Translations under genes and position numbers: made by a program
Shown: in pieces, positions 125 to 11,088 of the stretch
How the letters are laid out: each line of letters opens with the position of its first letter
How positions within the stretch are numbered: the first letter of the stretch is position 1
Notes under the pieces: model-generated
The model's database searches: none
What the model saw: only the letters and a program-made list of their open reading frames with translations
Told to the model about the DNA's origin: nothing
Assembly (NCBI GenBank): GCA_964565725.1
Contig: CAZMGA010000019.1
Span: 1 to 11,088, forward strand
Length of the DNA stretch: 11,088 nucleotides
Origin: an uncultured archaeon
GTDB lineage: Archaea > Iainarchaeota > Iainarchaeia > Iainarchaeales > 0-14-0-20-30-16
Direction: 5' to 3'

Positions 125-1669
125 TTAAACTAAATATGAATTTACCGCATTCGAATAAATAGTATATGACTCGGGGTTATGAACATTTTGATTAGTATAA
201 GAACCATTAAAAACAGTATTTAATATATTATCATACACATCAATATATTCATCAATTAAATTACCTTTTTGAGATTTAACCCAATCATTTATTGCTTTTC
301 TAGTAGATATATTTTTGCCAGGAGTTATAGACAAAGCAATAACTTTTGTATTATTTTTTTTTGCTAAATTATATATTGCTGTTAAATTTTTTTTAACGCC
401 AGATATATTTATAGAAGTTGATCCAATATCATTTGCACCACCCATAACAAAAATATAATCATATTTTTTTCCTGAATTATATTCAGCAGTTAATTTATCT
501 AACATCCATTTAGTGCTTTTTCCAGATTCTGCAATTTTAGTAATTTCGTATTTAGATTTATCATAAATATTATTTAATTTAGGGTAATAACCAACAGTGA
601 TAGAATCTCCTAATAAAAGTATTTTAGTTTTTTCATTAGTCGTTTTTACTGTTTTTGTTTTATTTAAGAAAAAAAAATCATATATAGAATTATAAAATTT
701 AGGCCAATTAAAATTACTAGAACTAGAAGATGATTTTTTCCACACATTGTAATCATTATTAGAAATTTCTGCTAATCTTGTTTCATTATTTATATTAAAT
801 TCAATATATTTAGAATCTAAAGATGCTTCACAAAATAATTTATCCCAACCATCTACTTCAATATAAACAAAAAAATCATTTACTTTATTTATTTTATAAC
901 TGGAAGAAGTATCCCCAACTCTTTCATTATATTTTTTATTTAAAATGATTTTATCATCATATTCAGAAGGTTTAAGTAAATAAGTTTTACATTGAGTTGT
1001 AGTACCTATTGTACCTTTAATATATGTAGAATAGTTATCTAAATCATCTAATTTAATTAAATCCTCATCAGTAATTTTCAAAATTTTTCCTTGTGAAAAA
1101 CCAGTTTGACAAACAGCTTTACCATATTCATTAACAATTACTATTTTTCTGTCATCTTCAGAAATATTAGCTTTATAGGGTTTTACAGATTGATTATACC
1201 CATATGTTCCTTTAAAATTAAAACCTGATAAATCATTATTAATATTACATTCTTGAATATTTAGAGGATCAAATCTATAAATATAAAATCCTTCTTTATT
1301 ACTTTGTGTTTCAAATTTTATACATCTATAATGTATTTCTAAATTATTTTTAATTTTAAAACACATATAATTATTATTTAATTTATTAGATTGACTTGCA
1401 CTACAAACTTCATTATTAGAATTCCAAGGATAAATTACAGTATAATTATTATTAGTATTATTTATTTTATACAAAACATATGGCGGACCAACATTTTCAT
1501 TAAAATTTTTAAAATTTTTAAATTCTCTAGTAACTATAAAGTCAGATATATCTAAATCATTTCTATAATTACAGTCCCAAATATCTAAAGAGAATACAAA
1601 AGAAAATGACAATATTGTTAACAAAACTAAAAAAATATAATTTAATTTATTAAAACTCATAAATATCAA
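125..1669 (-). CDS. Secreted SGNH/GDSL-family hydrolase (esterase type) with an N-terminal region of three Cys-bracketed repeats
   Basis: 514-codon ORF ending in TAA (125-127). There are two candidate starts: TTG 1667-1669, which overlaps the upstream TGA as TTGA, and ATG 1658-1660, which lies 5 nt after that stop. The N-terminus has a signal-peptide-like h-region (NYIFLVLLTILSFSFVFS). The C-terminal third carries the SGNH blocks: I ILLLGDSITVG (Ser356, codon 602-604), II ESGKS, III FVMGGANDIG (Asn413) and V NVHNP (His497, codon 179-181). A poly-Ser linker (res 313-318) separates the two halves. Confidence 0.9.
   Translation of the reverse strand: MIFMSFNKLNYIFLVLLTILSFSFVFSLDIWDCNYRNDLDISDFIVTREFKNFKNFNENVGPPYVLYKINNTNNNYTVIYPWNSNNEVCSASQSNKLNNNYMCFKIKNNLEIHYRCIKFETQSNKEGFYIYRFDPLNIQECNINNDLSGFNFKGTYGYNQSVKPYKANISEDDRKIVIVNEYGKAVCQTGFSQGKILKITDEDLIKLDDLDNYSTYIKGTIGTTTQCKTYLLKPSEYDDKIILNKKYNERVGDTSSSYKINKVNDFFVYIEVDGWDKLFCEASLDSKYIEFNINNETRLAEISNNDYNVWKKSSSSSSNFNWPKFYNSIYDFFFLNKTKTVKTTNEKTKILLLGDSITVGYYPKLNNIYDKSKYEITKIAESGKSTKWMLDKLTAEYNSGKKYDYIFVMGGANDIGSTSINISGVKKNLTAIYNLAKKNNTKVIALSITPGKNISTRKAINDWVKSQKGNLIDEYIDVYDNILNTVFNGSYTNQNVHNPESYTIYSNAVNSYLV
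128..628 (-). other. Segment encoding the SGNH catalytic domain of the downstream hydrolase (res ~348-514)
   Basis: The GDS, G, GxND and H blocks occur in canonical order and spacing (see the CDS entry). Confidence 0.85.
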
Positions 1670-4600
1670 CTTAATCCCGTAGATTTCAAATCATTATTAT
1701 ATGCTAAAATAAATGGAGAATTATTTTTTAATGTTCTATGATCACTTAAACCAATATAACCCCAATCAAAACCACTTCTAGGATCACCTTTTGCAGCTAA
1801 TTCAAAATGTGCAATAACAGCAGTATCTGAAATATCTTTTATTAATCCTCTATCTTTTATATCTTTTAATAATTTCTTTAAAGATTCATGTTGTTTTAAT
1901 GTGTAAGGATAGCCTCCAAAATTTATACAATGTCTTAAATCTATAGCTATTGAAAGAGTATTTATAAGAATATCTTTACAACTTTTATCATTTGTTTTAC
2001 AACCCGCATGATTTGCACCATAATCTTCAGAAACTAATTTAAAAATTTCTCCAGAACAACCTATATAATAATGACTTGAAGTTTTTCTTGCGTCCCAATC
2101 ATGAATACAATTATTTACCGCAACATCATCAGTATAAGTAGATTTTTCCCAACCACCATCGTGTAAAACTACAAAACCATATGCTGCTCTTTTAGTAGTG
2201 TTTTTAGCAATTCTTTTATCATCAAAATATTTAGTATTAACCTTAATATAATTAGTTTGTAAAGGCATTACAGAATCTATAGATATTAAATTTTTAGATA
2301 ATTCAGGTCCTAATTTTGTTGTTATAGGTTTAGGTAATGCAGAATAACTTAAACATTTTTCTGATTCATTATTTAAATAATTTAAATACTCAGTCCAATA
2401 CAAATCAATAGATTGATTTTTACTTTGATTTCCTTTACATTTATTAGTATCTGGTATATTTCCAGAACTATCTACACAACCAGGGCCCACAACATAAGAT
2501 TTTACTGTTAATTCTAAATCTTTTTTGTTAGTATAAATAGAATATAATAAAGAAGCTTGATACATAATAGATAGTTCTGCTTTTGTTCTAGGATCTTTGT
2601 TTAATATCCCTTTACCATCATATAATAAACCACCTTCTTTTTGATACATTTTTCCAGTGTTACAAGTTAAGTCATACAATTCATTAAAATTTTTAATATT
2701 TAATTCTTTAAAATCATCACTATTAAAATTAAATACACTTGAAAATTCAGAATATTTTCCTTTAATAATATTTTTAGTAAGATCACAAAAAGTTTCAGGC
2801 TTAAGTTGTCCCAAACCAACAGCATAACTTTGAGAAACAATCATAGGATTAAATCTAGATTCTTTATATGTTTGTGCAATTAAATTTTTTGCATCCATTT
2901 TACCATTAGTTTTTTGTTTTAATATATCTCCATATTTAATAAATAAATCTTTATAATGAGTACAACCTATAAGTGGCTGTGTTGCGTTTGTTGAATTGGA
3001 AGATGAAGTACTTGTAGGAATTGGAGCCAAAGTATTAGCCCCACTATTGTCAATTAAACCATCTGAAATATATCCTTTAGTTATATTTTCAGTATTACAA
3101 AAGTTTTGTAATATTTTGTTAGATTCTAATTCTTTAACAGTACCAATATATTTATTTTCATTATTTGGATCTACAGTTAAAATCATAGTATAATAATGAT
3201 TTCTAACAAAATTATCTGGCAATATAAATTCAATACTTTTTGCAGAATTAAAACTTTCTTTAGTCATAAGTTTAGATGTTCCTTTATATGCTAAATCTGC
3301 TAATACTCCTGCAACTGCACCTCTTAACATACCTTTTGCAAAATTCCATATTTTTGTTCTTGTCAATGTTTTTGATTCTACATCTTTAATCAAAGCTTTT
3401 AAAGCATCATCATCTATATCGTCTACAACAGTAGCTGGTGGTGTATTAGGTAAATTTTTAATTTTTAATTTTAAAACATCTCTTTCGGCTTGTATTTTTT
3501 TAATTTCAGTATCAATTTTTAAAAAATCATCATTTAATTGTTTAAGATTAGGACAAGGTGGTGTTTTTCCCATACAAGCTTTTATTTGGTTTGTTAATTG
3601 ACCTTTCTTTGGACCTAATTTTGTTGTTAATTCTTTATTTATTTCATTAATTCTTTTTACATCTGAAGGATCTGGTGTTGATGCAGTTCCTGGAGTAGTA
3701 ATTGTTTTAGGATTTCCAATTCTATCCCAAGTATCCTTATTAGTTAAATTTATTTTTTCATCTATAATTTTAATAAGATCATCCAAACTGCTTTTATATT
3801 GTTTATTATGTTTGTTTATTACTTCTGCAAATTTTGGATCTGTATTATAAAACTTTTTCAATAATTCATTTTTACTTGTTACATTATTAATTATATCTTT
3901 ATTTGCAGGATCGGATAATTTTTTAACAAACATGTCTATAAATTCATCTGCAAGTTTATTTTGTGAATAAGTGCCATTAGCTAAATTTTTTACACTTGTA
4001 TAACCTACTTCTGCACCTCTTACACCTGCATTTACTGTTGCACCTGTTGCAGCTGCCTCTAATTCATTTAAATAGGAAATATCTGTACTATCTTTTAAAG
4101 CTTTTTGAGCATCAGCAGAATCTTCATAATCTTCAAACATCCAATCAGTCAATATAAAATCATTTAATGAATCATGAACTTTATCTAAAGCATTTCTACT
4201 AGAATTTCCAGCATATACATTTAATCTATGATTTGCATAAAGTGTGGAACCTGCAAAAGATCCAACTATTACGCCACATTCAATACCTGCTTCAACCCAT
4301 AATGCAGGACTCATAGCTTTTCCTTTAAAAGCTAATTCTGCAAGCATACAAACCCCTGCAGATACTCCACTAGATACTCCTACTCTCAATCCCAAACCTT
4401 TATTTAAAGTTTCTACTACTGCTTTAGTATTATTTGCAGCACAATAATTATTAGAAACTTTACCACTAAAAGAAATATTTTTATTTTGTGCTAATTTATT
4501 TAAAACTTCACAACTGTTTATTCCTTCTTTTTCTCCTTCCCAATAAATTAAAGCTGAATAATTCTTATTACTTAAATCTGAATTTAATATACCTCCTAAA

Positions 4601-7600
4601 TAGGCTTCAGGAGATACTCCACAAGGTTTAAATTTAACAATTAATTGTTTTTCTTCACCATTTGTAGGTGTAAAAATAATTTTCAAAGGTAAGTTTTCCG
4701 AGTATGAAATTGCTTTATTAGGATCAGTAAAATTAACTCTTAAAACATATTCTTTAGTAGAAGCATTTACAAATGAAACATCATTTACTTCATTACCTAT
4801 ACTATCAATTATTTTTGCAGAATAGCCTTCCATTTGTGCAGGATAAAATGAAAATGAACCATAACCTGTTTTTGTCCCAGATATTGTAAAAGTACAATCT
4901 ATATCACCATAATCTACATTTAAAACATTACATCCTTTTAATTCATATTGTCCAGTAGTAGAATCTGATGGAGATACTACTTCAAATTCATTATTTTTTG
5001 CATTATAACAACCAGTAAAATTTCCTTGTAATGCAGATTTAATTACATTAACTAAATCCTTTTTATCTTTATCTTGTTCTAAATTGAAATTTTCATTAAT
5101 TACTACTACTACATTATTATTATCAAATTTTAATTTGATTAGATTTTTTCCAACATCCCCTTTGGTTAAAAATAAAGTATTATCTCTATCATCCAATACT
5201 CTTTCTGTACCAAATAATTCTTTTGAAACAAAATCAGATAAAGGTTTAAAAGTATATTTTGTATCATAATAGACAAATGCAGGTTTAAAACCAAAAGCAC
5301 TATCTGCTAAAATTGTAGTATCTAAAGGCAAAAATAAAGCAGCATTGTTTACAGTTCTTTTACATTCTTCTGTATTTTCCTTTTCAAATTTAACTATTAT
5401 ACTATAATTATCTGATTGTGCTATGTTATCAACCACATTAAAAAAACCATTTAATGTTACAGTATATTTTCCACAACCTTTAAAATTTGGTTCAATAAAT
5501 AATACATTATAATTTGAAGTAGATTTCATATTTTCAAAAGAATAATTATTAGGCAAAATATTTACTGTTTTTAAATTAGTTTTTATTTTTTCTAATAAAA
5601 CATTATTAAAATATTCATTACTCAAATTATCTTCCATTAAATATACTACAAATGTAGAATCTTCTACCCCTATATTTCCAAATTCACATTTTGATTCAGC
5701 ACAAGTCTTTATATCTTTAGAATTCACAGCCAATTTATTTTTATATTCTTTAACATAACCATTTACTTTTTGAGATATAAATTCAGATGCTAATTTTCCA
5801 TCACAATAAGCATTACTACAATCCATAGATTTTGCAACTTTAGGATATAACAAAGATGTATCTTCGGAAGTATCACAATCTTTAATTGTTTTTTTAGTTG
5901 TAGGTTCTTGTGAACTACTTACTGCACTATCTCCAAATTTAAATTCGTAATTTATTTTTTTAGCATATGTTTTGTTTGTAGATAAGCCTCTTGCAAAAAC
6001 ATCTATAACTGAAGAATCATCTTGTTTTTCTTTAACAGCTACAACAGATTTTATTTCTGTTCTTTGCCCTGGTGTTAAAACTAAATTATTAGAACTTAAT
6101 GTCAAAATATTTTGTGTAGATACATTTTTAACAGATGGTAAATTTAATCTAACAGATTCTGCACAATTATTTATTACTACAATGTTTGAAGTAGTAGCAT
6201 TTATATTTAATTTTGTACTTTTAAATTTTAATATATTTTGAGTACCATTAGCATAAAATTCAACACATGTTGATGAGGATATTTGTGCAAATAAAGGTAC
6301 ATACTTAACTATTTGTGAATTATCTGCAACACTTGTTCCTTTTACTACCAAAACATATTCTGCAAAAGCACTATCAAAACTTAAACCTTCAACACCAAAA
6401 GATATTATTGAATTCATTCTTTGTTGTGGCCCCAATATTTGCAAATTAGTAGGTCTTGGTAAAATTTTCATTGCTACATTAGTTTTTTTAATTTGTGTTG
6501 TTCCATCCCAATTAGTAAATGGATAATCATTACCTAAAATAAAACTATCAGGATTATAAAAATTAGAAACTGTTGAATTTCCAATATTACTTAAACCCAT
6601 AGCATTTCCACTAGTCATAGTTTGATCTATATAATTATTATATTGCTGTGCGGATATTGTAATATTTTTTAAATTAGTAGTGCCATTATTAAAAATTGAT
6701 AATACAACTGAATTTAATTGACCAGTAGTAATATTATGTAATTGACTTGGTGAAACACTAATTATTAAATCTCCAAAACTATGAACTAAATTTAAAGTAA
6801 CAGGTAATTGTTTTTGGAAATATTCTGTATTAAAATTAATAAATGCTTCTACATTTACATTTGAAGAAATTAATGATTTTAAAGAGAAAGTATATTTTAC
6901 TAATTTAGTATCTCCTTTTTTTATAGAAGTTGTTGGTATTTGTAAATCAATTATTTCTGCTAAATTTACGTTTGATCTTAAAACTAATTCTGGATTTAAA
7001 TTAGAAATGTCAACTTCACAATTATTTTGTATTTGAATTTCACCAGCCACTTTTTGATTTACTCCATCATACAAAATCAAAGGCAATTTTGAAGGGTTTA
7101 TAGCCAAACAAGATGCATCCAAATTACTATTTGCAACGTAATTTATATGAATTACTTGTCTTACTATTTCTCCACCATCTATAATACCGGTCAAAGCAAT
7201 ATCTTGATCTCCATAAGCCAAATCATTTTCATCATAACTTACATTTACTATAATTTTAGAAGTTTTACTAGACATCAAATTAGTAGTAGAAATTCTATAA
7301 TCTATATTAAAATTAGTAGCATCATCTCTCATTATTTCTAAACCAATGTTCTTTAAATTAAATTTAGAAATATTTTTAAAAGGAATTTCATAACTTCTTG
7401 TTTTCATACCAACAGGTATTTTTATTTCAATTTCTGTATCAACATCAAATACACCAGTTCTAGTAATTAAAAATTGACCACTTGTAGAATTATGTCCTGT
7501 AGCCGAAACTTTATAATTATATATTCCGGATGGTAATTCATTAATCACATATTTTCCGTTTAATCCTAAATTATTTGTATTATTACCTTCTATATATTGT

Positions 7601-10410
7601 ATTACAGCATTATCTGAACTTACAAGATTTATTTTAGCATTAGAAATTTTGTTAGAACTATCAGAAATATCAAAAATAATTTGTTGACCTATATTGAAAG
7701 TATTTGCATTTAATTTTACTGTTAAAGGTTTTTGATTTTCAATATTAAAATTAAATTCTTTATTCATATTTAGTTCTTTAGAACTCATCAATATATTTCC
7801 TACACCCACATCATTAGTTCTAAAATATAATCTATATTTTTTATGTTCTCCTTTTAAGATTGACAAAGGAATATTCAAAGTGTTAAAGTTTAAATCTAAT
7901 GGTGAAAAATTAACTACATCATTACTAATATTATTTAATAATAATTTGTTAGTATTGTTATTTGTATTAAAATCAATATTAACATTTAAAGTTTCCAAAG
8001 CATAAAAATCAAAATCTAAAGCGTAAGTTTCATTTTTTATTGCTGAAAATGAATCATATTTTTTAAAACTATCAGAATATGAATAAGAATAACATAAATT
8101 TTGATTACAAGCAAACAAATCAGAAAAAACATTTATTGTTTCTTTTTTTGTTAAAGAATATAATCTTAACAATTTATTAGAATTTATTTCTGTATTTGGT
8201 TCACTATGATAAAGACCATCAAAAGAATTTACTCTATAATCTATATTGATATTTTCTAAATCTTTTGCATCATCTAATTTAATTTTTACTTTAATTTCAC
8301 TTAAACCTTTAGGATTATTAAAATACAAATTAACCCATTTATTTTTTATCCCGGGTCTTCCAAAAACTTTCAAATCTTTTACATTTGATTCTGTTGAATT
8401 TGGATTATAATGTAAACCATATTCTTTTATAGAATTAGATGAAATTACAGAATTAATACTATAAGGCAAGGAAATTATAGGAGTATCTTCTCCAACTCTA
8501 ATATGTACTTCCCCTTTATCTTGATTTCCAGGCCAAATTACAGTAAATTTTAAAAAATAATAATTACCTAATTTAACTCCATTAAGTTGATTTCCTTCTA
8601 AATCATAAACACCATCAAAACTTATTTTTGGATTTTTAGAACGTTCAAATTCATTTAATAAAACTTCCATTTCTTTTTCAACAGTCATTATTTTAGAATA
8701 AGATTCGTCATCATAAATTACATTTATTTCTACTTCTTTTGAACCGTTAGGATAAAATTCTATATTTCCTTCTAAAGTATTTCCATCAAATAATTTTGTA
8801 TTTCCTGACAATATTTGAACTTGTGCATTTTTTAATGGGTCTCCCAAAACATCATAAAAATAAACTTTACTCACATCTTCATTAGGAGTCATAACTAAAG
8901 AATAATTAGTTTCACCAGCGTTTAAGTCTAAATAATCTGACCCATATAATTTTTCACTTTGTGCACTAACCAATATTTTTTTATTAGCTTCTAAATTAAA
9001 AAATAAAGCGCCAGAAATAGATGTTTGTGTTTTTGTTAAATAAATAGGCAATGGAACATCATCTTCCATATAATATGCACTCACTTGAGATTGTACTGGT
9101 TTATTATCTATATCTACAGTAAATAATTGTAATCTTGCAATATTGTTAGGAGCCATTTTAGTTAAAACAATTGTTAATTGTTCTGTATTTGGGGTAATAG
9201 TTTTTACAGATGGAAAATAATTTCCAAATTCAGCAGTAGAAACATAACCACTTCTTTTTACATCTAAACCATTAAAATCTACAATTCCAAAAGCGTTAGT
9301 TATTTGTGTTGAAATTAATAACCCATTATCAGAATATAATGCAACATTTACACCTACTAATTCTTTATCTGTTTCATCTTTAACAATAACTTTTAAAGAG
9401 GTCCCACCAATACTTAAATTAATATTTATTGATTCTGCATCAGAAGTTAATTTTAAATTTCTACCATAATCTTCTGAATCCCATGTGATATATCCAGTTT
9501 TACTAACAACATATCTTACTATTGTTCCTTTCGGTATATTTTCTAATGCTTTTCCTTCATTATCAGTATAAATTTCAGAAAGTTTTTGTTGTGTTTTTGA
9601 ATTATATATTGTTATTAGCACATCTTTCAAAGGTTGATTATTAGAAGAAATATTAAAATTAATTGTTCCGGATTCTCCATTAGAAATTTCTTTTGGTTCT
9701 AAACCTAAATCTTTTAAGCCATTACCCGAAACACTTATTTGGTCATATAAATGATATCCATCTTTACTGATTATTACTTTTAAAGGTTGATTTAAAGGCA
9801 CATCTGTTAAATTTACATTACCAGATTCATCAGAAACACCAGAAAATAATAATGTGCCATCATCAGAAAAAATATTTATATCCGCATTAGGTACAAAGGT
9901 ATTATCTTTATTATCTAATAATCTAAAAGTCATTGAACCAGTTTCCAAATCTTTGCTTAAAACAAAAATTTGAGTTAGTTCTTTTGAAGAAATAACTATT
10001 TCTTCAGGTCCTACTAAATAATAATCTTCTAAATAAACATTAACTGTTAAAACATTTCCAATTTTTGTTTTAAATTTTATATTTTCAGAGCTCACTATTC
10101 CATTATAAACTACTTCTTCGCCAGATTTTAAAGTCAAAGTTATATTTGAAAGGGGATTTTGATCTTCATCTACAAAACTTAAAGACATATTTATTGTGCT
10201 ATTTACTGAGAAAAATAAAATTAAAAGAACGATTGCTACAATTAAAATTAAAATTATTAAATTAAACCACATTGGTGGAATTCCATGATTTTCTAAAAAA
10301 TCATTATATCTGTCAATAGGCAATCCTTTTTCTGATAAAAAGTCGCTCATAGCGTAATATTTTTCTTCTAATTTCGAATTAATATTTCTAAAAAAATCTC
10401 CAATCCCCAT
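1666..10410 (-). CDS. Giant (2,914 aa) N-terminally membrane-anchored surface protein: CarboxypepD_reg-like beta-sandwich repeats, unknown central domains, glycine-zipper hydrophobic pair, C-terminal lytic transglycosylase (SLT) + N-acetylmuramoyl-L-alanine amidase (Amidase_2)
   Basis: Uninterrupted ORF from ATG 10408-10410 to TGA 1666-1668, with an SD-like GAAAGGTG 7 nt upstream. Residues 1-47 are polar and residues 48-69 form a hydrophobic helix (WFNLIILILIVAIVLLILFFSV). Six ~80-aa repeats span res 74-585 and a seventh spans res 895-984, with signatures such as SDESGNVNLTDVP..KDGY, TDNEGKALENIPKGT..KTGY and NGKYVINELPSGIYNYKVSATGH. Glycine zippers lie at res 2005-2058. SLT motifs are present: E2517-S, GLGQL 2532-2536 and SYVVGPG 2638-2644. 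Amidase_2 motifs are present: FVVLH2750, SSHYYIGCSGEIFKLV, NTLSIAIDL and AH2868FELAAKGD2876P. My residue numbering was cross-checked by counting from both ends of the protein and against codons in the DNA. Confidence 0.95.
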   Translation of the reverse strand: MGIGDFFRNINSKLEEKYYAMSDFLSEKGLPIDRYNDFLENHGIPPMWFNLIILILIVAIVLLILFFSVNSTINMSLSFVDEDQNPLSNITLTLKSGEEVVYNGIVSSENIKFKTKIGNVLTVNVYLEDYYLVGPEEIVISSKELTQIFVLSKDLETGSMTFRLLDNKDNTFVPNADINIFSDDGTLLFSGVSDESGNVNLTDVPLNQPLKVIISKDGYHLYDQISVSGNGLKDLGLEPKEISNGESGTINFNISSNNQPLKDVLITIYNSKTQQKLSEIYTDNEGKALENIPKGTIVRYVVSKTGYITWDSEDYGRNLKLTSDAESININLSIGGTSLKVIVKDETDKELVGVNVALYSDNGLLISTQITNAFGIVDFNGLDVKRSGYVSTAEFGNYFPSVKTITPNTEQLTIVLTKMAPNNIARLQLFTVDIDNKPVQSQVSAYYMEDDVPLPIYLTKTQTSISGALFFNLEANKKILVSAQSEKLYGSDYLDLNAGETNYSLVMTPNEDVSKVYFYDVLGDPLKNAQVQILSGNTKLFDGNTLEGNIEFYPNGSKEVEINVIYDDESYSKIMTVEKEMEVLLNEFERSKNPKISFDGVYDLEGNQLNGVKLGNYYFLKFTVIWPGNQDKGEVHIRVGEDTPIISLPYSINSVISSNSIKEYGLHYNPNSTESNVKDLKVFGRPGIKNKWVNLYFNNPKGLSEIKVKIKLDDAKDLENINIDYRVNSFDGLYHSEPNTEINSNKLLRLYSLTKKETINVFSDLFACNQNLCYSYSYSDSFKKYDSFSAIKNETYALDFDFYALETLNVNIDFNTNNNTNKLLLNNISNDVVNFSPLDLNFNTLNIPLSILKGEHKKYRLYFRTNDVGVGNILMSSKELNMNKEFNFNIENQKPLTVKLNANTFNIGQQIIFDISDSSNKISNAKINLVSSDNAVIQYIEGNNTNNLGLNGKYVINELPSGIYNYKVSATGHNSTSGQFLITRTGVFDVDTEIEIKIPVGMKTRSYEIPFKNISKFNLKNIGLEIMRDDATNFNIDYRISTTNLMSSKTSKIIVNVSYDENDLAYGDQDIALTGIIDGGEIVRQVIHINYVANSNLDASCLAINPSKLPLILYDGVNQKVAGEIQIQNNCEVDISNLNPELVLRSNVNLAEIIDLQIPTTSIKKGDTKLVKYTFSLKSLISSNVNVEAFINFNTEYFQKQLPVTLNLVHSFGDLIISVSPSQLHNITTGQLNSVVLSIFNNGTTNLKNITISAQQYNNYIDQTMTSGNAMGLSNIGNSTVSNFYNPDSFILGNDYPFTNWDGTTQIKKTNVAMKILPRPTNLQILGPQQRMNSIISFGVEGLSFDSAFAEYVLVVKGTSVADNSQIVKYVPLFAQISSSTCVEFYANGTQNILKFKSTKLNINATTSNIVVINNCAESVRLNLPSVKNVSTQNILTLSSNNLVLTPGQRTEIKSVVAVKEKQDDSSVIDVFARGLSTNKTYAKKINYEFKFGDSAVSSSQEPTTKKTIKDCDTSEDTSLLYPKVAKSMDCSNAYCDGKLASEFISQKVNGYVKEYKNKLAVNSKDIKTCAESKCEFGNIGVEDSTFVVYLMEDNLSNEYFNNVLLEKIKTNLKTVNILPNNYSFENMKSTSNYNVLFIEPNFKGCGKYTVTLNGFFNVVDNIAQSDNYSIIVKFEKENTEECKRTVNNAALFLPLDTTILADSAFGFKPAFVYYDTKYTFKPLSDFVSKELFGTERVLDDRDNTLFLTKGDVGKNLIKLKFDNNNVVVVINENFNLEQDKDKKDLVNVIKSALQGNFTGCYNAKNNEFEVVSPSDSTTGQYELKGCNVLNVDYGDIDCTFTISGTKTGYGSFSFYPAQMEGYSAKIIDSIGNEVNDVSFVNASTKEYVLRVNFTDPNKAISYSENLPLKIIFTPTNGEEKQLIVKFKPCGVSPEAYLGGILNSDLSNKNYSALIYWEGEKEGINSCEVLNKLAQNKNISFSGKVSNNYCAANNTKAVVETLNKGLGLRVGVSSGVSAGVCMLAELAFKGKAMSPALWVEAGIECGVIVGSFAGSTLYANHRLNVYAGNSSRNALDKVHDSLNDFILTDWMFEDYEDSADAQKALKDSTDISYLNELEAAATGATVNAGVRGAEVGYTSVKNLANGTYSQNKLADEFIDMFVKKLSDPANKDIINNVTSKNELLKKFYNTDPKFAEVINKHNKQYKSSLDDLIKIIDEKINLTNKDTWDRIGNPKTITTPGTASTPDPSDVKRINEINKELTTKLGPKKGQLTNQIKACMGKTPPCPNLKQLNDDFLKIDTEIKKIQAERDVLKLKIKNLPNTPPATVVDDIDDDALKALIKDVESKTLTRTKIWNFAKGMLRGAVAGVLADLAYKGTSKLMTKESFNSAKSIEFILPDNFVRNHYYTMILTVDPNNENKYIGTVKELESNKILQNFCNTENITKGYISDGLIDNSGANTLAPIPTSTSSSNSTNATQPLIGCTHYKDLFIKYGDILKQKTNGKMDAKNLIAQTYKESRFNPMIVSQSYAVGLGQLKPETFCDLTKNIIKGKYSEFSSVFNFNSDDFKELNIKNFNELYDLTCNTGKMYQKEGGLLYDGKGILNKDPRTKAELSIMYQASLLYSIYTNKKDLELTVKSYVVGPGCVDSSGNIPDTNKCKGNQSKNQSIDLYWTEYLNYLNNESEKCLSYSALPKPITTKLGPELSKNLISIDSVMPLQTNYIKVNTKYFDDKRIAKNTTKRAAYGFVVLHDGGWEKSTYTDDVAVNNCIHDWDARKTSSHYYIGCSGEIFKLVSEDYGANHAGCKTNDKSCKDILINTLSIAIDLRHCINFGGYPYTLKQHESLKKLLKDIKDRGLIKDISDTAVIAHFELAAKGDPRSGFDWGYIGLSDHRTLKNNSPFILAYNNDLKSTGLS
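1741..2208 (-). other. Segment encoding the Amidase_2 (T7-lysozyme/PGRP-type N-acetylmuramoyl-L-alanine amidase) domain (res ~2735-2890)
   Basis: The putative Zn ligands are H2750 (codon 2161-2163), H2868 (1807-1809) and D2876 (1783-1785). The H-to-D/C spacing is 8, as in T7 lysozyme His122/Cys130. The conserved SSHYYIG..G.I..LV and N..SIAIDL blocks are also present. Confidence 0.85.
2476..2964 (-). other. Segment encoding the SLT (family-1 lytic transglycosylase) domain (res ~2483-2645)
   Basis: NLIAQTYKE2517SRFNP contains the catalytic Glu-Ser (Glu codon 2860-2862). AVGLGQLKPETF matches the GLMQ motif, and SYVVGPG matches the AYNxGxG motif. Confidence 0.85.
4237..4398 (-). other. Segment encoding paired glycine-zipper hydrophobic helices (res 2005-2058)
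   Basis: The sequence is GLGLRVGVSSGVSAGVCMLAELAF-KGKAMSP-ALWVEAGIECGVIVGSFAGSTLY. Helix 1 contains G2011xxxG2015xxxG2019 and helix 2 contains G2042xxxG2046xxxG2050xxxG2054. This region is a visibly GC-richer island in the DNA. Confidence 0.7.
8656..10191 (-). other. Segment encoding six tandem ~80-aa CarboxypepD_reg/PEGA-like beta-sandwich repeats (res 74-585)
   Basis: Each unit opens with an alternating hydrophobic strand plus D/N..P[LV]..[AV].[VI].[LI], for example LSFVDEDQNPLSNITLTL, LKVIVKDETDKELVGVNVALY and VYFYDVLGDPLKNAQVQIL. Most units contain a (T/S)DxxGxxx[FL] turn and a [KT]xGY strand. The repeats are diverged at the DNA level. Confidence 0.75.
10204..10269 (-). other. Segment encoding the single N-terminal transmembrane anchor of the giant protein (res 48-69)
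   Basis: A 22-residue uncharged hydrophobic run, WFNLIILILIVAIVLLILFFSV. It is preceded by a 47-aa charged tail and is the only such run in the first 2,000 residues. No signal-peptidase-like site follows it. Confidence 0.8.
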
Positions 10411-10417
10411 AAATATG

Positions 10418-10425
10418 CACCTTTC
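10418..10425 (-). promoter_or_regulatory. Shine-Dalgarno-like ribosome-binding site of the giant gene
   Basis: The minus strand reads GAAAGGTG-CATATTT-ATG. GAAAGG and GGTG are both complementary to the conserved 3' end of 16S rRNA, and the 7-nt spacing to the ATG is appropriate. Confidence 0.55.
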
Positions 10426-10461
10426 TAAATAATATTATATATATAAACATTTATAAAAACA
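10426..10461 (-). promoter_or_regulatory. Possible promoter in the 51-nt cls-giant gene spacer (TATA-like / -10-like A+T tract)
   Basis: The minus strand reads TGTTTTTATAAATGTTTATATATATAATATTATTTA. It contains TTTATATA (archaeal TATA-box-like) and TATAAT (bacterial -10-like). In a genome this AT-rich such strings are weak evidence. The giant gene may equally be co-transcribed with cls. Confidence 0.25.
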
Positions 10462-11088
10462 TTACAATAAAGGAGACAATAACCTAGCAAATGATTGCTT
10501 AAATTTAGTAAAAAAACTTTGTTTTCTCAAATCTACAATTTTTTGTTCTATTGTTTCATTTAAATCGTTTAAATAAATTTTTGTACAATTATCAGAAAAT
10601 TTTGAATTAAAAACAAAAGCTGTAACTTCAAAATCTAAATCTAAACTTCTAGAATCTAAATTTGTAGAACCTATAGCAACTACATCATCAGAAATAACTA
10701 ACTTATTGTGTAAAAAACCTTTTTGATATAAATAAATTTTAATTCCTGAAGACATTAACTCACTAAAATAAGTTTTAGTAGCCAAATCTACCCACAAACT
10801 ATCTGATTTTTGAGGCAAAATAATTTTTACATCTACGCCTTTCAAAGATGCAGATTTTAATGCAAACAACAAAGTTTCATCGGGTATAAAATAAGGTGTT
10901 TGAATATACAACTTTTTTTCTGAATTAGTAATTAACGAAAATAAAACAAATTTATTATTTGACCATTTTAAATCTGGCCCAGATGGAGTAATGTGAATTA
11001 CTGAATCTCCAAAATTATTTATTTTTGGATATAACTCTTTTGAATATATATTTTCCTTTTTAACAAAAGCCCAATCTTTAACAAATAT
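10462..11088 (-). CDS. cls: Cardiolipin synthase / phospholipase D-family phosphatidyltransferase, C-terminal part (5' end outside window)
   Basis: The supplied ORF begins at an internal TTG (10909-10911). My hand translation shows the same frame stays open for 59 more codons to the window edge (IFVKDWAFVKKENIYSKELYPKINNFGDSVIHITPSGPDLKWSNNKFVLFSLITNSEKK-LYIQTPYFIPD). The SGPD and TPYFIPD blocks are typical of Cls enzymes. An HKD motif is present, HNKLVISDDVVAIGSTNLDSRS (His codon 10708-10710), which would be the second of the two PLD motifs. The stop is TAA at 10462-10464. Confidence 0.85.
   Translation of the reverse strand: MFVKDWAFVKKENIYSKELYPKINNFGDSVIHITPSGPDLKWSNNKFVLFSLITNSEKKLYIQTPYFIPDETLLFALKSASLKGVDVKIILPQKSDSLWVDLATKTYFSELMSSGIKIYLYQKGFLHNKLVISDDVVAIGSTNLDSRSLDLDFEVTAFVFNSKFSDNCTKIYLNDLNETIEQKIVDLRKQSFFTKFKQSFARLLSPLL

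What the first reader, a model, noticed from the sequence alone, without database searches (positions are those of the whole stretch)
4237..4398. Paired glycine-zipper (GxxxGxxxG) hydrophobic helices buried 2,000 residues into an otherwise hydrophilic extracellular protein
Helix 1 is GLGLRVGVSSGVSAGVCMLAELAF and helix 2 is ALWVEAGIECGVIVGSFAGSTLY, joined by a 7-residue basic loop (KGKAMSP). They carry perfect in-register glycine zippers: G2011/2015/2019 in helix 1 and G2042/2046/2050/2054 in helix 2. Each helix also holds one or two charged residues (R2009 and E2025; E2040 and E2044). At the DNA level this is the most GC-rich patch of the gene, and that composition created the spurious + strand ORF 4244-4447. 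Glycine zippers are established packing motifs of membrane channels and pore-forming toxins, and they occur in the TM segments of phage tape-measure proteins. Two readings are possible. In the first, the hairpin is a second anchor in the producer membrane, which makes res 70-2004 a giant extracellular loop and still leaves the hydrolases outside. In the second, it is a conditionally exposed segment that inserts into the target cell's membrane. Either reading would be unusual.
Basis: partly seen in the sequence, partly recalled or inferred. Interest (0 to 1): 0.72.

Follow-up and report, generated by a model that had tools for sequence, protein, structure and literature searches.

The report
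Conserved hydrophobic hairpin in archaeal giant
Two weakly hydrophobic helices rich in small residues, each with an invariant cysteine, sit near the outer end of a 2,914-residue surface protein of a tiny symbiotic (DPANN) archaeon, beside enzymes that cut bacterial cell walls; they are more likely a device for engaging a host membrane, or a tightly packed structural core, than a second anchor in the archaeon's own membrane.

Summary
Residues 2005-2058 of the 2,914-aa ORF (1666..10410, minus strand) form a helix-loop-helix with four in-register Gly in each helix. It is the most hydrophobic stretch outside the N-terminal anchor and the GC-richest patch of the gene. The protein belongs to a small DPANN-archaeal giant family already noted in the literature for its murein lytic-transglycosylase domain; that paper's passages on the family do not mention the hairpin. 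All 10 family members recovered (down to 24% identity) keep a hairpin at the same place. The perfect Gly register is specific to this sequence: H1's is not conserved, and H2's G2046/2050/2054 is only partly conserved. The only residues invariant across all ten are one Cys per helix (C2021, C2045), placed to form a disulfide across the hairpin. Estimated insertion energy is +3 to +6 kcal/mol per helix, against -7.5 to -8.5 for the N-terminal anchors of the close relatives, so a Sec stop-transfer anchor is unlikely. A third small-residue helix (2357-2378) carries the family's only invariant GxxxG and cannot be transmembrane. AlphaFold was uninformative (pLDDT about 50). Best reading (about 0.4): an extracellular, stapled hairpin acting as a latent host-membrane-insertion element. 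Rivals: purely structural core (0.3), producer-membrane anchor (0.12).

The parts
10273..10410 (-). Residues 1-46, N-terminal cytoplasmic tail of the giant protein
   Evidence: It precedes the only strongly hydrophobic segment. About 20 positions are invariant among the 6 full-length homologues, the densest conservation in the protein.
10204..10272 (-). Residues 47-69, N-terminal signal-anchor TM helix
   Evidence: KD 3.63. Simplified insertion energy is -7.5 here and -7.8 to -8.5 in the close homologues.
4639..10203 (-). Residues 70-1924, extracellular stalk of Ig-like/CarboxypepD_reg-type beta domains with paired conserved cysteines
   Evidence: Pfam CarboxypepD_reg, bMG3, Big_1 and SdrD_B hits. 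Conserved Cys fall in apparent pairs.
4399..4638 (-). Residues 1925-2004, small Cys-containing alpha/beta domain directly before the hairpin (C1930, C1967, C1990)
   Evidence: Conserved in close relatives, and its 'CG[VI]xP ... YxxLxWxG' motif is also present in distant ones. AF2 pLDDT is 60-80 in the first run.
4327..4398 (-). H1, residues 2005-2028, first hairpin helix (G2007/2011/2015/2019; invariant C2021; E2025 invariant in the 7 close relatives)
   Evidence: AF2 predicts a helix at 2006-2029.
4306..4326 (-). Loop KGKAMSP, residues 2029-2035 (basic; P2035 present in 9 of 10 members)
   Evidence: Alignments. The loop carries +1 to +2 charge and no acidic residue in the 7 close homologues.
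4237..4305 (-). H2, residues 2036-2058, second hairpin helix (W2038, invariant C2045, G2046/2050/2054 stripe mostly conserved, Y2058)
   Evidence: AF2 predicts a helix at 2035-2066.
3355..4236 (-). Residues 2059-2352, alpha-helical linker with coiled-coil-like composition and variable length (about 295 aa here, about 590 aa in P0011)
   Evidence: AF2 secondary structure is almost all helix. Length variation is seen. The only PDB profile hits are coiled-coil noise.
3244..3354 (-). H3, residues 2353-2389, third small-residue helix (core FAKGMLRGAVAGVLADLAYKGT; G2360, G2364 and Y2375 invariant in the six full-length close relatives)
   Evidence: In distant relatives H3 carries a Cys.
3091..3243 (-). 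Residues 2390-2440, small conserved beta domain (ILPDxFV...Y...Y...FC)
   Evidence: Invariant P2398, D2399, F2401, Y2407, Y2421, F2437, C2438. AF2 predicts strands with pLDDT 70-83.
2749..2916 (-). SLT lytic transglycosylase domain, residues 2499-2554, with the catalytic-type E-S motif (K2516-E2517-S2518)
   Evidence: Pfam PF01464, E=3.8e-8. Motif seen.
1780..2175 (-). Amidase_2 (N-acetylmuramoyl-L-alanine amidase) domain, residues 2746-2877
   Evidence: Pfam PF01510, E=1e-12. PHROG amidase/endolysin hits.
125..1660 (-). Downstream gene: N-terminal hydrophobic segment plus GDSL/SGNH hydrolase. The same domain is fused to the C-terminus of the giant protein in P0002, P0003, P0006 and P0011.
4244..4447 (+). 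Antisense 67-aa ORF over the hairpin, judged spurious
   Evidence: Listed. Antisense open stretches in homologous loci differ in frame and length.

Best explanation
The segment is an extracellular helix-loop-helix hairpin near the distal end of an N-terminally anchored giant surface protein of a DPANN archaeon.

Shown:
- It is helical by prediction and uniformly apolar and small-residue-rich, with no amphipathic face.
- It is conserved in position across a family down to 24% identity.
- It is far too weakly hydrophobic to behave like the protein's own anchor.
- It carries one invariant Cys per helix at matching distance from the turn.

Inferred:
- The two Cys form a disulfide that staples the hairpin after export.
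- The hairpin, the variable coiled-coil linker and the third small-residue helix H3 fold into a helical bundle that shields the hairpin in the resting state.
- On contact with a host cell, after the adjacent lytic transglycosylase, amidase and SGNH esterase have opened the murein, the hairpin is exposed and partitions into the host membrane. It then either fastens the symbiont or perturbs or perforates the membrane.

The logic is that of phage T5 tape-measure protein pb2 and of colicin-type toxins: a hydrophobic helical hairpin next to a wall-cutting or toxic domain.
For: (1) Hydrophobicity. The hairpin is the most hydrophobic stretch outside the anchor in the window protein and among the most hydrophobic in every family member. 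It is nevertheless +3.1 to +6.1 kcal/mol per 19-mer on a simplified Hessa sum. The N-terminal anchors score -7.5 to -8.5 in the close relatives and -2.1 to -3.4 in the distant ones, and real TM helices of a neighbouring PLD protein score -2 to -4. This marginal range is like that of secreted membrane-active segments (HIV fusion peptide +2.2 on the same sum).

(2) No polar face: hydrophobic moment 0.09 and 0.13. The helices therefore cannot sit on a protein surface. They must be fully shielded or in lipid.

(3) C2021 and C2045 are the only hairpin residues invariant in all 10 members. They lie 11-12 residues either side of the turn. Conserved Cys occur in apparent pairs all along the ectodomain.

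(4) In the distant branch H1 has two Cys 7 residues apart, H2 has one and H3 has one. Pairing all of them within the module would require an H3-hairpin link, which suggests the three helices are bundled.

(5) H3 resembles H1 in composition. It cannot be transmembrane, because that would put the hydrolases and the conserved C2438/C2483 pair in the cytoplasm.

(6) Gly and Ala codons are selected against a 25% GC background in every locus: hairpin GC is 0.37-0.48 against locus GC 0.25-0.42.

(7) The module sits immediately upstream of interchangeable wall-degrading heads: SLT+amidase, SLT+GDSL, glucosaminidase-like+amidase.

(8) Precedents. T5 pb2 has a 46-residue hydrophobic stretch 'compatible with two transmembrane helices' next to a muralytic metallopeptidase motif, and that stretch is proposed to insert into the host membrane (PMC10038345). 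A glycine zipper in the T6SS effector Tde1 is required for prey-membrane permeabilisation (PMC10240207).

(9) The family was already proposed to attach to bacterial cell walls (PMC8204110).
Against: - No experiment bears on this, and no homologue has a known function.
- AlphaFold2 gave only low-confidence models (mean pLDDT 52.5 and 50.5; hairpin 45-63), so neither shielding nor exposure is shown.
- The positive insertion energy, the Glu in H1 (invariant in the close relatives) and a frequent Asp in H2 also penalise spontaneous insertion into a target membrane.
- A transmembrane hairpin entering from outside would have to carry the basic loop across the bilayer.
- Three distant members keep the module but have no detectable murein hydrolase, so the link to wall breaching is not obligatory.
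- The glycine register, the usual hallmark of channel-forming zippers, is not conserved in H1.
- A bacterial host is inferred, not demonstrated.
No DeepTMHMM or TOPCONS was available.
Confidence: 0.4

Rival explanations
1. Purely structural packing core. The hairpin and H3 are Ala/Gly/Ser-rich helices that pack very closely (GxxxG/AxxxA or Alacoil-type contacts), are locked by a disulfide, and form the permanent core or oligomerisation nucleus at the base of the coiled-coil linker. They never meet a membrane.
For: - GxxxG/AxxxA contacts are common in soluble proteins. FliH is one example (PMC2674601), and a 2025 survey covers membrane and soluble contexts (PMC12470825).
- Insertion energy is positive in all members.
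- E2025 is invariant in the close relatives, Asp is frequent in H2, and there are many Ser and Thr.
- The invariant Cys pair and the H3 Cys in distant relatives argue for folding in an oxidising extracellular space.
- The module persists where no hydrolase domain is detectable.
- The conserved small stripe in H1 (-12/-8/-4/Cys/+4 Glu) looks like a helix-helix interface.
Against: - Both helices lack any polar face over about 23 residues. They would therefore have to be wrapped completely by other helices. To my knowledge (memory), the known soluble folds with a fully buried hydrophobic helical hairpin, such as colicins, the diphtheria toxin T domain and the Bcl-2 family, are membrane-insertion domains.
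- AlphaFold did not place the hairpin in a confident core.
Confidence: 0.3
2. Second anchor in the producer's membrane. H1 and H2 form a transmembrane hairpin with the basic loop in the archaeal cytoplasm. Residues 70-2004 would then be a giant extracellular loop, and the hydrolases would be tethered close to the archaeal surface.
For: - Helix lengths of 23-24 residues and a short loop with 1-2 Lys/Arg and no acidic residue in the close homologues fit the positive-inside rule.
- Both flanks carry conserved Cys pairs and extracellular-type domains, which is consistent with an out-in-out hairpin.
- Ala/Gly-rich TM hairpins with a buried carboxylate do exist. The ATP synthase c subunit gives -0.5 and +3.3 on the same crude scale (sequence from memory).
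Against: - Insertion energy is +3 to +6 kcal/mol per helix in all 10 members, against -2 to -8.5 for bona fide TM helices in the same loci.
- After translocation of about 1,935 residues, H1 would have to stop transfer and H2 would have to re-initiate export of about 856 residues.
- The invariant Cys pair would lie 8-9 residues from the cytoplasmic face, where a disulfide is implausible.
- The compositionally similar H3 cannot be TM.
- Tethering the wall-cutting enzymes to the archaeon's own membrane, after building a stalk of about 1,900 residues, makes little functional sense.
Confidence: 0.12
3. Chance or compositional artefact. A locally GC-rich patch happens to encode Gly/Ala/Val, and the zipper has no function.
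For: The perfect Gly register occurs only in this sequence.
Against: - The hairpin is kept at the same position in all 10 members down to 24% identity, with invariant Cys and conserved Pro, Trp and Tyr.
- GC enrichment over the hairpin recurs in seven loci of differing base composition. The composition therefore follows from selection on the protein.
Confidence: 0.02

Closest known systems
DPANN giant 'murein-like lytic transglycosylase' proteins (fam00969 of Castelle et al. 2021, PMC8204110)
   Same: Archaeal (DPANN) origin, about 3,000 aa, extracellular, SLT domain, proposed to bind or degrade bacterial walls. The window protein fits this description. A homologue is annotated as coming from a 'Candidatus Diapherotrites archaeon' MAG.
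   Different: The passages of that paper that describe the family mention the SLT domain only. They do not mention the hairpin, H3, the Cys pair, the amidase or GDSL heads, or the conserved cytoplasmic tail. I did not read the whole paper. Membership in fam00969 itself could not be checked against their HMM.
Phage T5 tape-measure protein pb2 (Boulanger et al. 2008; Linares et al. 2023, PMC10038345)
   Same: A long fibrous or coiled-coil protein in which a hydrophobic stretch of about 46 residues, compatible with two TM helices, lies next to a muralytic domain. That stretch is proposed to insert into the host membrane while the enzyme digests peptidoglycan.
   Different: No sequence similarity: PHROGs, Pfam and phage tblastn were all negative for this region. 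The domain order differs: here the hairpin precedes the coiled coil. This protein is anchored in a cell membrane rather than housed in a tail tube. The enzymes also differ (SLT and amidase against a metallopeptidase).
Hydrophobic helical hairpin of pore-forming colicins and pyocin S5, and alpha-pore-forming toxins with coiled coils (ClyA, XaxAB/YaxAB, AhlB)
   Same: An Ala/Gly-rich hairpin without a polar face is carried in a soluble, secreted helical protein and becomes the membrane-inserted element. Long coiled coils are adjacent.
   Different: No significant sequence or fold match. XaxA, YaxB and AhlB appear only at E>1. Those hairpins are not known (from memory) to carry an invariant disulfide pair. 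Shielding by surrounding helices is not demonstrated here.
Glycine-zipper membrane-permeabilising segments of bacterial effectors (T6SS Tde1; VacA; Tse4; CdzC/D), PMC10240207
   Same: Consecutive GxxxG repeats in a secreted antibacterial protein. In Tde1 the G39xxxG43 motif is required for prey-membrane permeabilisation and translocation.
   Different: In the present family the Gly register is not conserved in H1 and only partly in H2. There is no homology, and here the hairpin is internal to a cell-anchored giant protein.
Pfam glycine-zipper families (Gly-zipper_OmpA PF13436 and relatives; glycine-zipper 2TM type)
   Same: Composition. H3 of homologue P0005 gives a weak sub-threshold hit to Gly-zipper_OmpA (E=0.036, 14.3 bits against a 27-bit cutoff).
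   Different: Neither the hairpin nor H3 of the window protein hits any Pfam family, even at E<=10.
Soluble GxxxG repeat helices (e.g. FliH/YscL, PMC2674601)
   Same: Long in-register GxxxG runs that mediate helix-helix packing outside any membrane.
   Different: From general knowledge, FliH repeats are more polar between the glycines. Here the intervening residues are V/L/I/A/S and the helices have no polar face.

Membership tests
DPANN giant SLT-domain surface proteins (Castelle 2021 fam00969) | Encoded by DPANN archaea | tested here: met
   Homologues lie on contigs titled 'Candidatus Diapherotrites archaeon', 'Candidatus Iainarchaeum' or 'uncultured archaeon'. Contig L001 carries Alba, PAC2 and an archaeal-type ProRS C-domain.
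DPANN giant SLT-domain surface proteins (Castelle 2021 fam00969) | [quoted passage not shown] | tested here: met
   2,914 aa; N-terminal anchor; SLT PF01464 E=3.8e-8 with an E-S motif.
DPANN giant SLT-domain surface proteins (Castelle 2021 fam00969) | Match to the family's own HMM or cluster | not testable with these tools
   The fam00969 model is not available here.
Glycine zipper (GxxxGxxxG-type) membrane-channel motif | Pattern (G,A,S)xxxGxxxG / GxxxGxxx(G,S,T) present | tested here: met
   Four in-register Gly in H1 and four in H2; P=0.005 and 0.001 given local composition.
Glycine zipper (GxxxGxxxG-type) membrane-channel motif | Motif lies in a transmembrane helix | tested here: inconclusive
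   The simplified insertion energy of +4.9/+6.0 (family +3.1 to +6.1) argues against a translocon-inserted TM. Insertion into a target membrane cannot be judged in silico. No DeepTMHMM was available.
Glycine zipper (GxxxGxxxG-type) membrane-channel motif | Gly register conserved among homologues | tested here: not met
   H1 zipper positions are Gly in 2/7, 3/7, 3/7 and 4/7 sequences. H2 +1/+5/+9 are Gly in 5/7, 5/7 and 4/7, so they are partly kept. G2042 is Gly in 2/7.
Pfam glycine-zipper domains (PF13436, PF13441, PF13488, PF05433) | HMM match above the gathering score | tested here: not met
   No hit at E<=10 for the hairpin or H3 segments. Only a sub-threshold hit in a homologue's H3.
Phage tape-measure proteins with TM hairpin and lytic domain | Sequence or profile similarity to TMP families; phage context | tested here: not met
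   PHROGs hit only the amidase and SLT parts. Phage tblastn and the IMG/VR scan were negative. The flanking genes are cellular.
Colicin-type or alpha-PFT pore-forming domains | Fold with the hydrophobic hairpin shielded by amphipathic helices | tested here: inconclusive
   AF2 models are low-confidence. Foldseek and PDB profile searches found nothing significant.
Conventional Sec stop-transfer TM anchor | Hydrophobicity comparable to bona fide TM helices of the same organisms | tested here: not met
   KD 1.57 and 1.36 against 3.63. Insertion energy is +3 to +6, against -7.5 to -8.5 for the close relatives' N-terminal anchors, -2.1 to -3.4 for the distant relatives' anchors, and -4.4/-2.1 for the PLD protein TMs.

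The most novel reading that the evidence does not exclude
The giant protein is a cell-anchored 'harpoon' of a DPANN archaeon. A stalk of about 1,900 residues presents a distal module consisting of a disulfide-stapled hydrophobic hairpin, a variable coiled coil and H3. After the interchangeable murein-cutting heads open a bacterial wall, the hairpin inserts into the bacterial membrane. This would be the first molecular device described for cross-domain (archaeon-to-bacterium) membrane engagement. Its conserved delivery module with swappable C-terminal enzymes would parallel polymorphic toxins and phage tape-measure proteins, without homology to either.
Probability: 0.3. Interest if true: 0.8.

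Novelty: new variant of a known kind. Interest (0 to 1): 0.5.

Why it matters
How ultrasmall DPANN archaea physically engage their hosts is an open question, especially the Woese-/Pacearchaeota-like lineages suspected of living on bacteria. The giant SLT proteins are the main genomic hint of a bacterial host, but only the enzyme domain had been discussed.

This analysis finds three things:
- a conserved hairpin/coil/H3 module that is more widely kept than the hydrolases themselves;
- an invariant Cys pair in the hairpin;
- interchangeable enzyme heads downstream of the module.

Together these give a concrete, testable candidate for the membrane-contact step. A 60-500-residue fragment can be made and tested on liposomes or in the E. 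coli periplasm.

If the module instead proves to be a soluble packing core, it is a caution against reading GxxxG runs in giant surface proteins as transmembrane segments. Such calls are already known to be unreliable in giant proteins (bioRxiv 10.1101/2023.11.21.568195).

Tried and rejected
- The word-indexed homologue search failed twice. It returned nothing, not even the query's own cluster, probably because low-complexity words swamped the candidates. Only the exhaustive phmmer run found relatives.
- Exact-sequence contig look-up of the window protein found nothing on record.
- A GTDB scan with the hairpin fragment alone found nothing. It succeeded only with the full-length alignment.
- No relatives were found by phage tblastn, IMG/VR scan, PHROGs or NCBIfam. 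A phage or tape-measure origin is therefore not supported.
- Pfam at E<=10 on the hairpin gave only a 21-residue Phage_holin_8 match at E=0.069, dismissed as noise.
- Two AlphaFold2 runs were done (546 aa and 161 aa, 7-sequence alignments). Both had pLDDT of about 50 and gave no usable tertiary information.
- Foldseek against the PDB found nothing below E=0.3. PDB sequence and profile searches found only coiled-coil noise.
- The idea that the C-terminal module is a separate gene in L008 (P0006, 1,023 aa) was rejected. The 'split' is a run of N with duplicated flanks.
- The idea that H1 and H3 are ancient repeats was rejected. Their similarity is significant only in the window protein.
- The downstream 514-aa gene is not homologous to the downstream genes of the distant relatives.
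- The antisense ORF 4244..4447 was rejected as a gene.
Full report
**What is in the window.** The window (25% GC) is dominated by one minus-strand ORF, 1666..10410, of 2,914 aa.
- Upstream lies the 3' part of a PLD/cardiolipin-synthase-like gene that runs off the window end.
- Six bases downstream of the stop begins a 511-aa gene with an N-terminal hydrophobic segment and a GDSL/SGNH hydrolase domain.
- The giant protein has a 46-residue N-terminal tail followed by one very hydrophobic helix (residues 47-69).
- About 1,850 residues follow that give CarboxypepD_reg/Ig-like hits.
- Near the C-terminus are an SLT lytic transglycosylase domain (2499-2554, with a K-E2517-S motif) and an Amidase_2 domain (2746-2877).

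**Checking the observation.** Residue n maps to window 10410-3(n-1), so 4237-4398 is residues 2005-2058, exactly the sequence quoted.
- Both helices carry four Gly at i, i+4, i+8, i+12.
- Shuffling residues within each helix gives such a run with P=0.005 and 0.001. Shuffling the whole protein gives any 4-Gly run with P=0.037.
- The helices are the second and third most hydrophobic 19-mers of the protein, at KD 1.57 and 1.36 against 3.63 for the anchor.
- Their DNA is the GC-richest patch of the gene, 0.414 against a mean of 0.254, rank 3 of 2,861 windows.
- The + strand ORF 4244..4447 exists. Comparable antisense open stretches in related loci differ in frame and length, so it is a by-product of local GC richness.

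**Relatives and origin.** The fast word-indexed search found nothing. An exhaustive phmmer search of 1.84 billion representatives with residues 1900-2459 found only six relatives besides the protein itself.
- Cluster look-ups and contig scans added full-length versions and three distant members. In total there are 10 distinct proteins of 2,495-3,180 aa.
- Records are titled 'Candidatus Diapherotrites archaeon', 'Candidatus Iainarchaeum archaeon' or 'uncultured archaeon'.
- One 63-kb contig carries Alba, PAC2 and an archaeal-type ProRS C-domain next to the gene, and a PLD gene upstream as in the window.
- This matches the family described by Castelle et al. [quoted passage not shown] The passages found in those papers do not mention the hairpin.

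**What is conserved.** All 10 members have a moderately hydrophobic helix-loop-helix at the same relative position, about residues 2026-2090.
- The better conserved small-residue stripe in H1 is offset by two residues. It runs -12/-8/-4, then the invariant Cys, then Glu at +4, which is invariant in the seven close relatives.
- In H2 the stripe +1/+5/+9 after the Cys (G2046/G2050/G2054) is Gly in 5, 5 and 4 of 7 and small in 7, 6 and 5 of 7. G2042 is not conserved.
- Across all 10 members the only invariant hairpin residues are C2021 and C2045, and P2035 in the loop is nearly invariant.
- Within the six full-length close relatives, E2025, W2038 and Y2058 are also invariant.
- The two Cys lie 11-12 residues on either side of the turn, the geometry expected for a disulfide across the hairpin.
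- Conserved Cys elsewhere in the ectodomain also come in apparent pairs.
- In the distant branch H1 has two Cys seven residues apart, H2 has one and H3 has one. I infer that pairing all of these within the module would need a bond between H3 and the hairpin, which suggests the three helices pack together. L012 has a further Cys just after H3, so the count there is less clean.
- The close similarity of H1 and H3 is peculiar to the window protein: score 46 against 19±4 for shuffles, and not significant in the other six.

**Is it a transmembrane hairpin of the producer?** I could not run DeepTMHMM or TOPCONS. As a substitute I summed the Hessa biological hydrophobicity values over 19-mers.

| Segment | Simplified insertion energy (kcal/mol) |
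|---|---|
| N-terminal anchors, window and close relatives | -7.5 to -8.5 |
| N-terminal anchors, distant relatives | -2.1 to -3.4 |
| Two TM helices of the neighbouring PLD protein | -4.4, -2.1 |
| Hairpin helices, window protein | +4.9, +6.0 |
| Hairpin helices, rest of family | +3.1 to +6.1 (one overlapping 19-mer at +2.3 in L012) |
| H3 | about +5 to +9 |
| E. coli c subunit (sequence from memory) | -0.5, +3.3 |
| HIV fusion peptide (sequence from memory) | +2.2 |

- A stop-transfer role after export of about 1,935 residues, with H2 then re-initiating export of about 856 residues, is therefore unlikely.
- H3 cannot be transmembrane, because that would place the hydrolases and the conserved C2438/C2483 pair in the cytoplasm.
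- In the anchor topology the Cys pair would lie in the cytoplasmic-leaflet half of the bilayer, a poor place for a disulfide.
- In favour of the anchor reading, the loop is consistently basic and never acidic in the close relatives.

**Is it a buried core of a soluble domain?** Two AlphaFold2 runs, on residues 1925-2470 and 1925-2085 with 7-sequence alignments, predict helices at 2006-2029 and 2035-2066.
- Confidence was low: mean pLDDT 52.5 and 50.5, and 45-63 over the hairpin.
- Foldseek and PDB sequence or profile searches gave nothing significant.
- GxxxG packing is well known in soluble proteins (PMC2674601, PMC12470825).
- Both helices have almost no hydrophobic moment (0.09 and 0.13). 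They cannot lie on a surface and must be completely wrapped or in lipid.

**Surroundings that bear on function.** Downstream of H2 comes a helical linker with coiled-coil-like composition. Its length varies from about 295 to about 590 residues.
- The linker is followed by H3 and then a small conserved beta domain.
- Enzyme heads come last, and they differ among members: SLT+Amidase_2 (window), SLT+GDSL (P0002, P0011; P0003 and P0006 look the same by sequence), and glucosaminidase-like+Amidase_2 (P0005; P0014 by sequence).
- Nothing is detectable in the distant members scanned, L010, L011 and L012.
- In the window the GDSL domain is a separate downstream gene.
- The hairpin/coil/H3 module is therefore the constant part and the wall-cutting enzymes are interchangeable. 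I infer that the module has a general role such as contact, insertion or oligomerisation, rather than a role specific to one enzyme.

**Most likely mechanism.** My ranking is as follows.
- **(a) Confidence 0.4.** An extracellular, disulfide-stapled hairpin, shielded at rest by the linker and H3, is exposed on host contact and partitions into the host membrane after the murein is cut.
- **(b) Confidence 0.3.** The same structural unit is a permanent packing or oligomerisation core.
- **(c) Confidence 0.12.** It is a second anchor in the archaeal membrane.
- **(d) Confidence 0.02.** It is a compositional accident.
- The remaining weight is for mechanisms I have not thought of.
- Shown: position, composition, conservation, weak hydrophobicity, invariant Cys, adjacency to murein hydrolases.
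- Inferred: the disulfide, the bundle with H3, the shielding, and any membrane activity.

**Comparison with known systems.** The nearest functional analogue is phage T5 tape-measure protein pb2. Its 46-residue hydrophobic stretch, 'compatible with two transmembrane helices', lies next to a muralytic motif and is proposed to insert into the host membrane (PMC10038345).
- Glycine zippers that permeabilise prey membranes are documented for the T6SS effector Tde1 (PMC10240207).
- Colicin-type and alpha-PFT hairpins share the 'apolar hairpin in a secreted helical protein' logic.
- Membership in any of these families is not supported. There is no sequence, profile or fold match, and the defining conserved Gly register fails for H1.
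- The protein itself fits the DPANN giant SLT family by description.

**Verdict.**
- The glycine zipper as such is a lineage-specific elaboration.
- The durable feature is a conserved, Cys-paired, marginally hydrophobic hairpin that belongs to a three-helix module.
- I rate it a new variant of a known kind. It is interesting mainly because it gives a testable handle on how these archaea might engage bacterial hosts.
- Every functional statement remains inference.

Noticed in passing
window 10273-10410 (residues 1-46): The short N-terminal cytoplasmic tail is the most densely conserved stretch of the whole giant protein, with about 20 invariant positions among six homologues that are otherwise about 36% identical. 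This suggests a conserved cytoplasmic partner for export, positioning or signalling.
   Followed up: partly
window 3244-3354 (residues 2353-2389): A third small-residue helix (H3) carries the only GxxxG invariant in the close relatives (G2360/G2364) plus invariant Y2375. In distant relatives it holds a Cys. In the window protein alone it is significantly similar to H1 (score 46 against 19±4 for shuffles).
   Followed up: yes
window 125-1660 (-) and C-termini of P0002, P0003, P0006, P0011: The GDSL/SGNH hydrolase is a separate downstream gene here, six bases after the giant ORF's stop. In other family members it is fused to the giant protein's C-terminus in place of the amidase. The enzyme heads are shuffled downstream of a constant module, as in polymorphic toxins. 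A possible role as an O-acetyl-peptidoglycan esterase was not tested.
   Followed up: partly
L010 9998-18040, L011 9992-18040, L012 6753-14240: Distant relatives (about 24% identity, GC 32-42%) keep the stalk, the hairpin, the coiled-coil linker and H3, but have no detectable murein hydrolase domain. L012 ends shortly after H3.
   Followed up: partly
window 10462-11088 (-); L001 5566-7008: A PLD/cardiolipin-synthase-like gene lies directly upstream of the giant gene in the window and a few genes upstream of it in L001. This could be a conserved link to membrane-lipid remodelling.
   Followed up: no
window 10411-10461 (- strand): The 51-bp upstream region contains an AT-rich TATA-like run (TTTATATATATAATA) and AGGTG 8 nt before the ATG. 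This is consistent with an own promoter and ribosome-binding site for the giant gene.
   Followed up: no
L008 9931-10031: The apparent split of the giant gene into 1,978-aa and 1,023-aa ORFs (database protein P0006) is a scaffold gap of Ns with duplicated flanks, not a real gene fission.
   Followed up: yes
whole giant ORF (residues 768-2483): 21 Cys positions are conserved in at least 5 of the 6 full-length homologues. They fall mostly into apparent nearby pairs (768/773, 1101/1131, 1382/1416, 1570/1575, 1646/1683, 1967/1990, 2021/2045, 2438/2483). This implies a disulfide-rich ectodomain in an anaerobic-lineage archaeon.
   Followed up: partly
L012, antisense of the giant gene around its hairpin: A 309-codon stop-free antisense stretch overlaps the hairpin and coiled-coil region. 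It is probably a codon-composition artefact and was not examined further.
   Followed up: no
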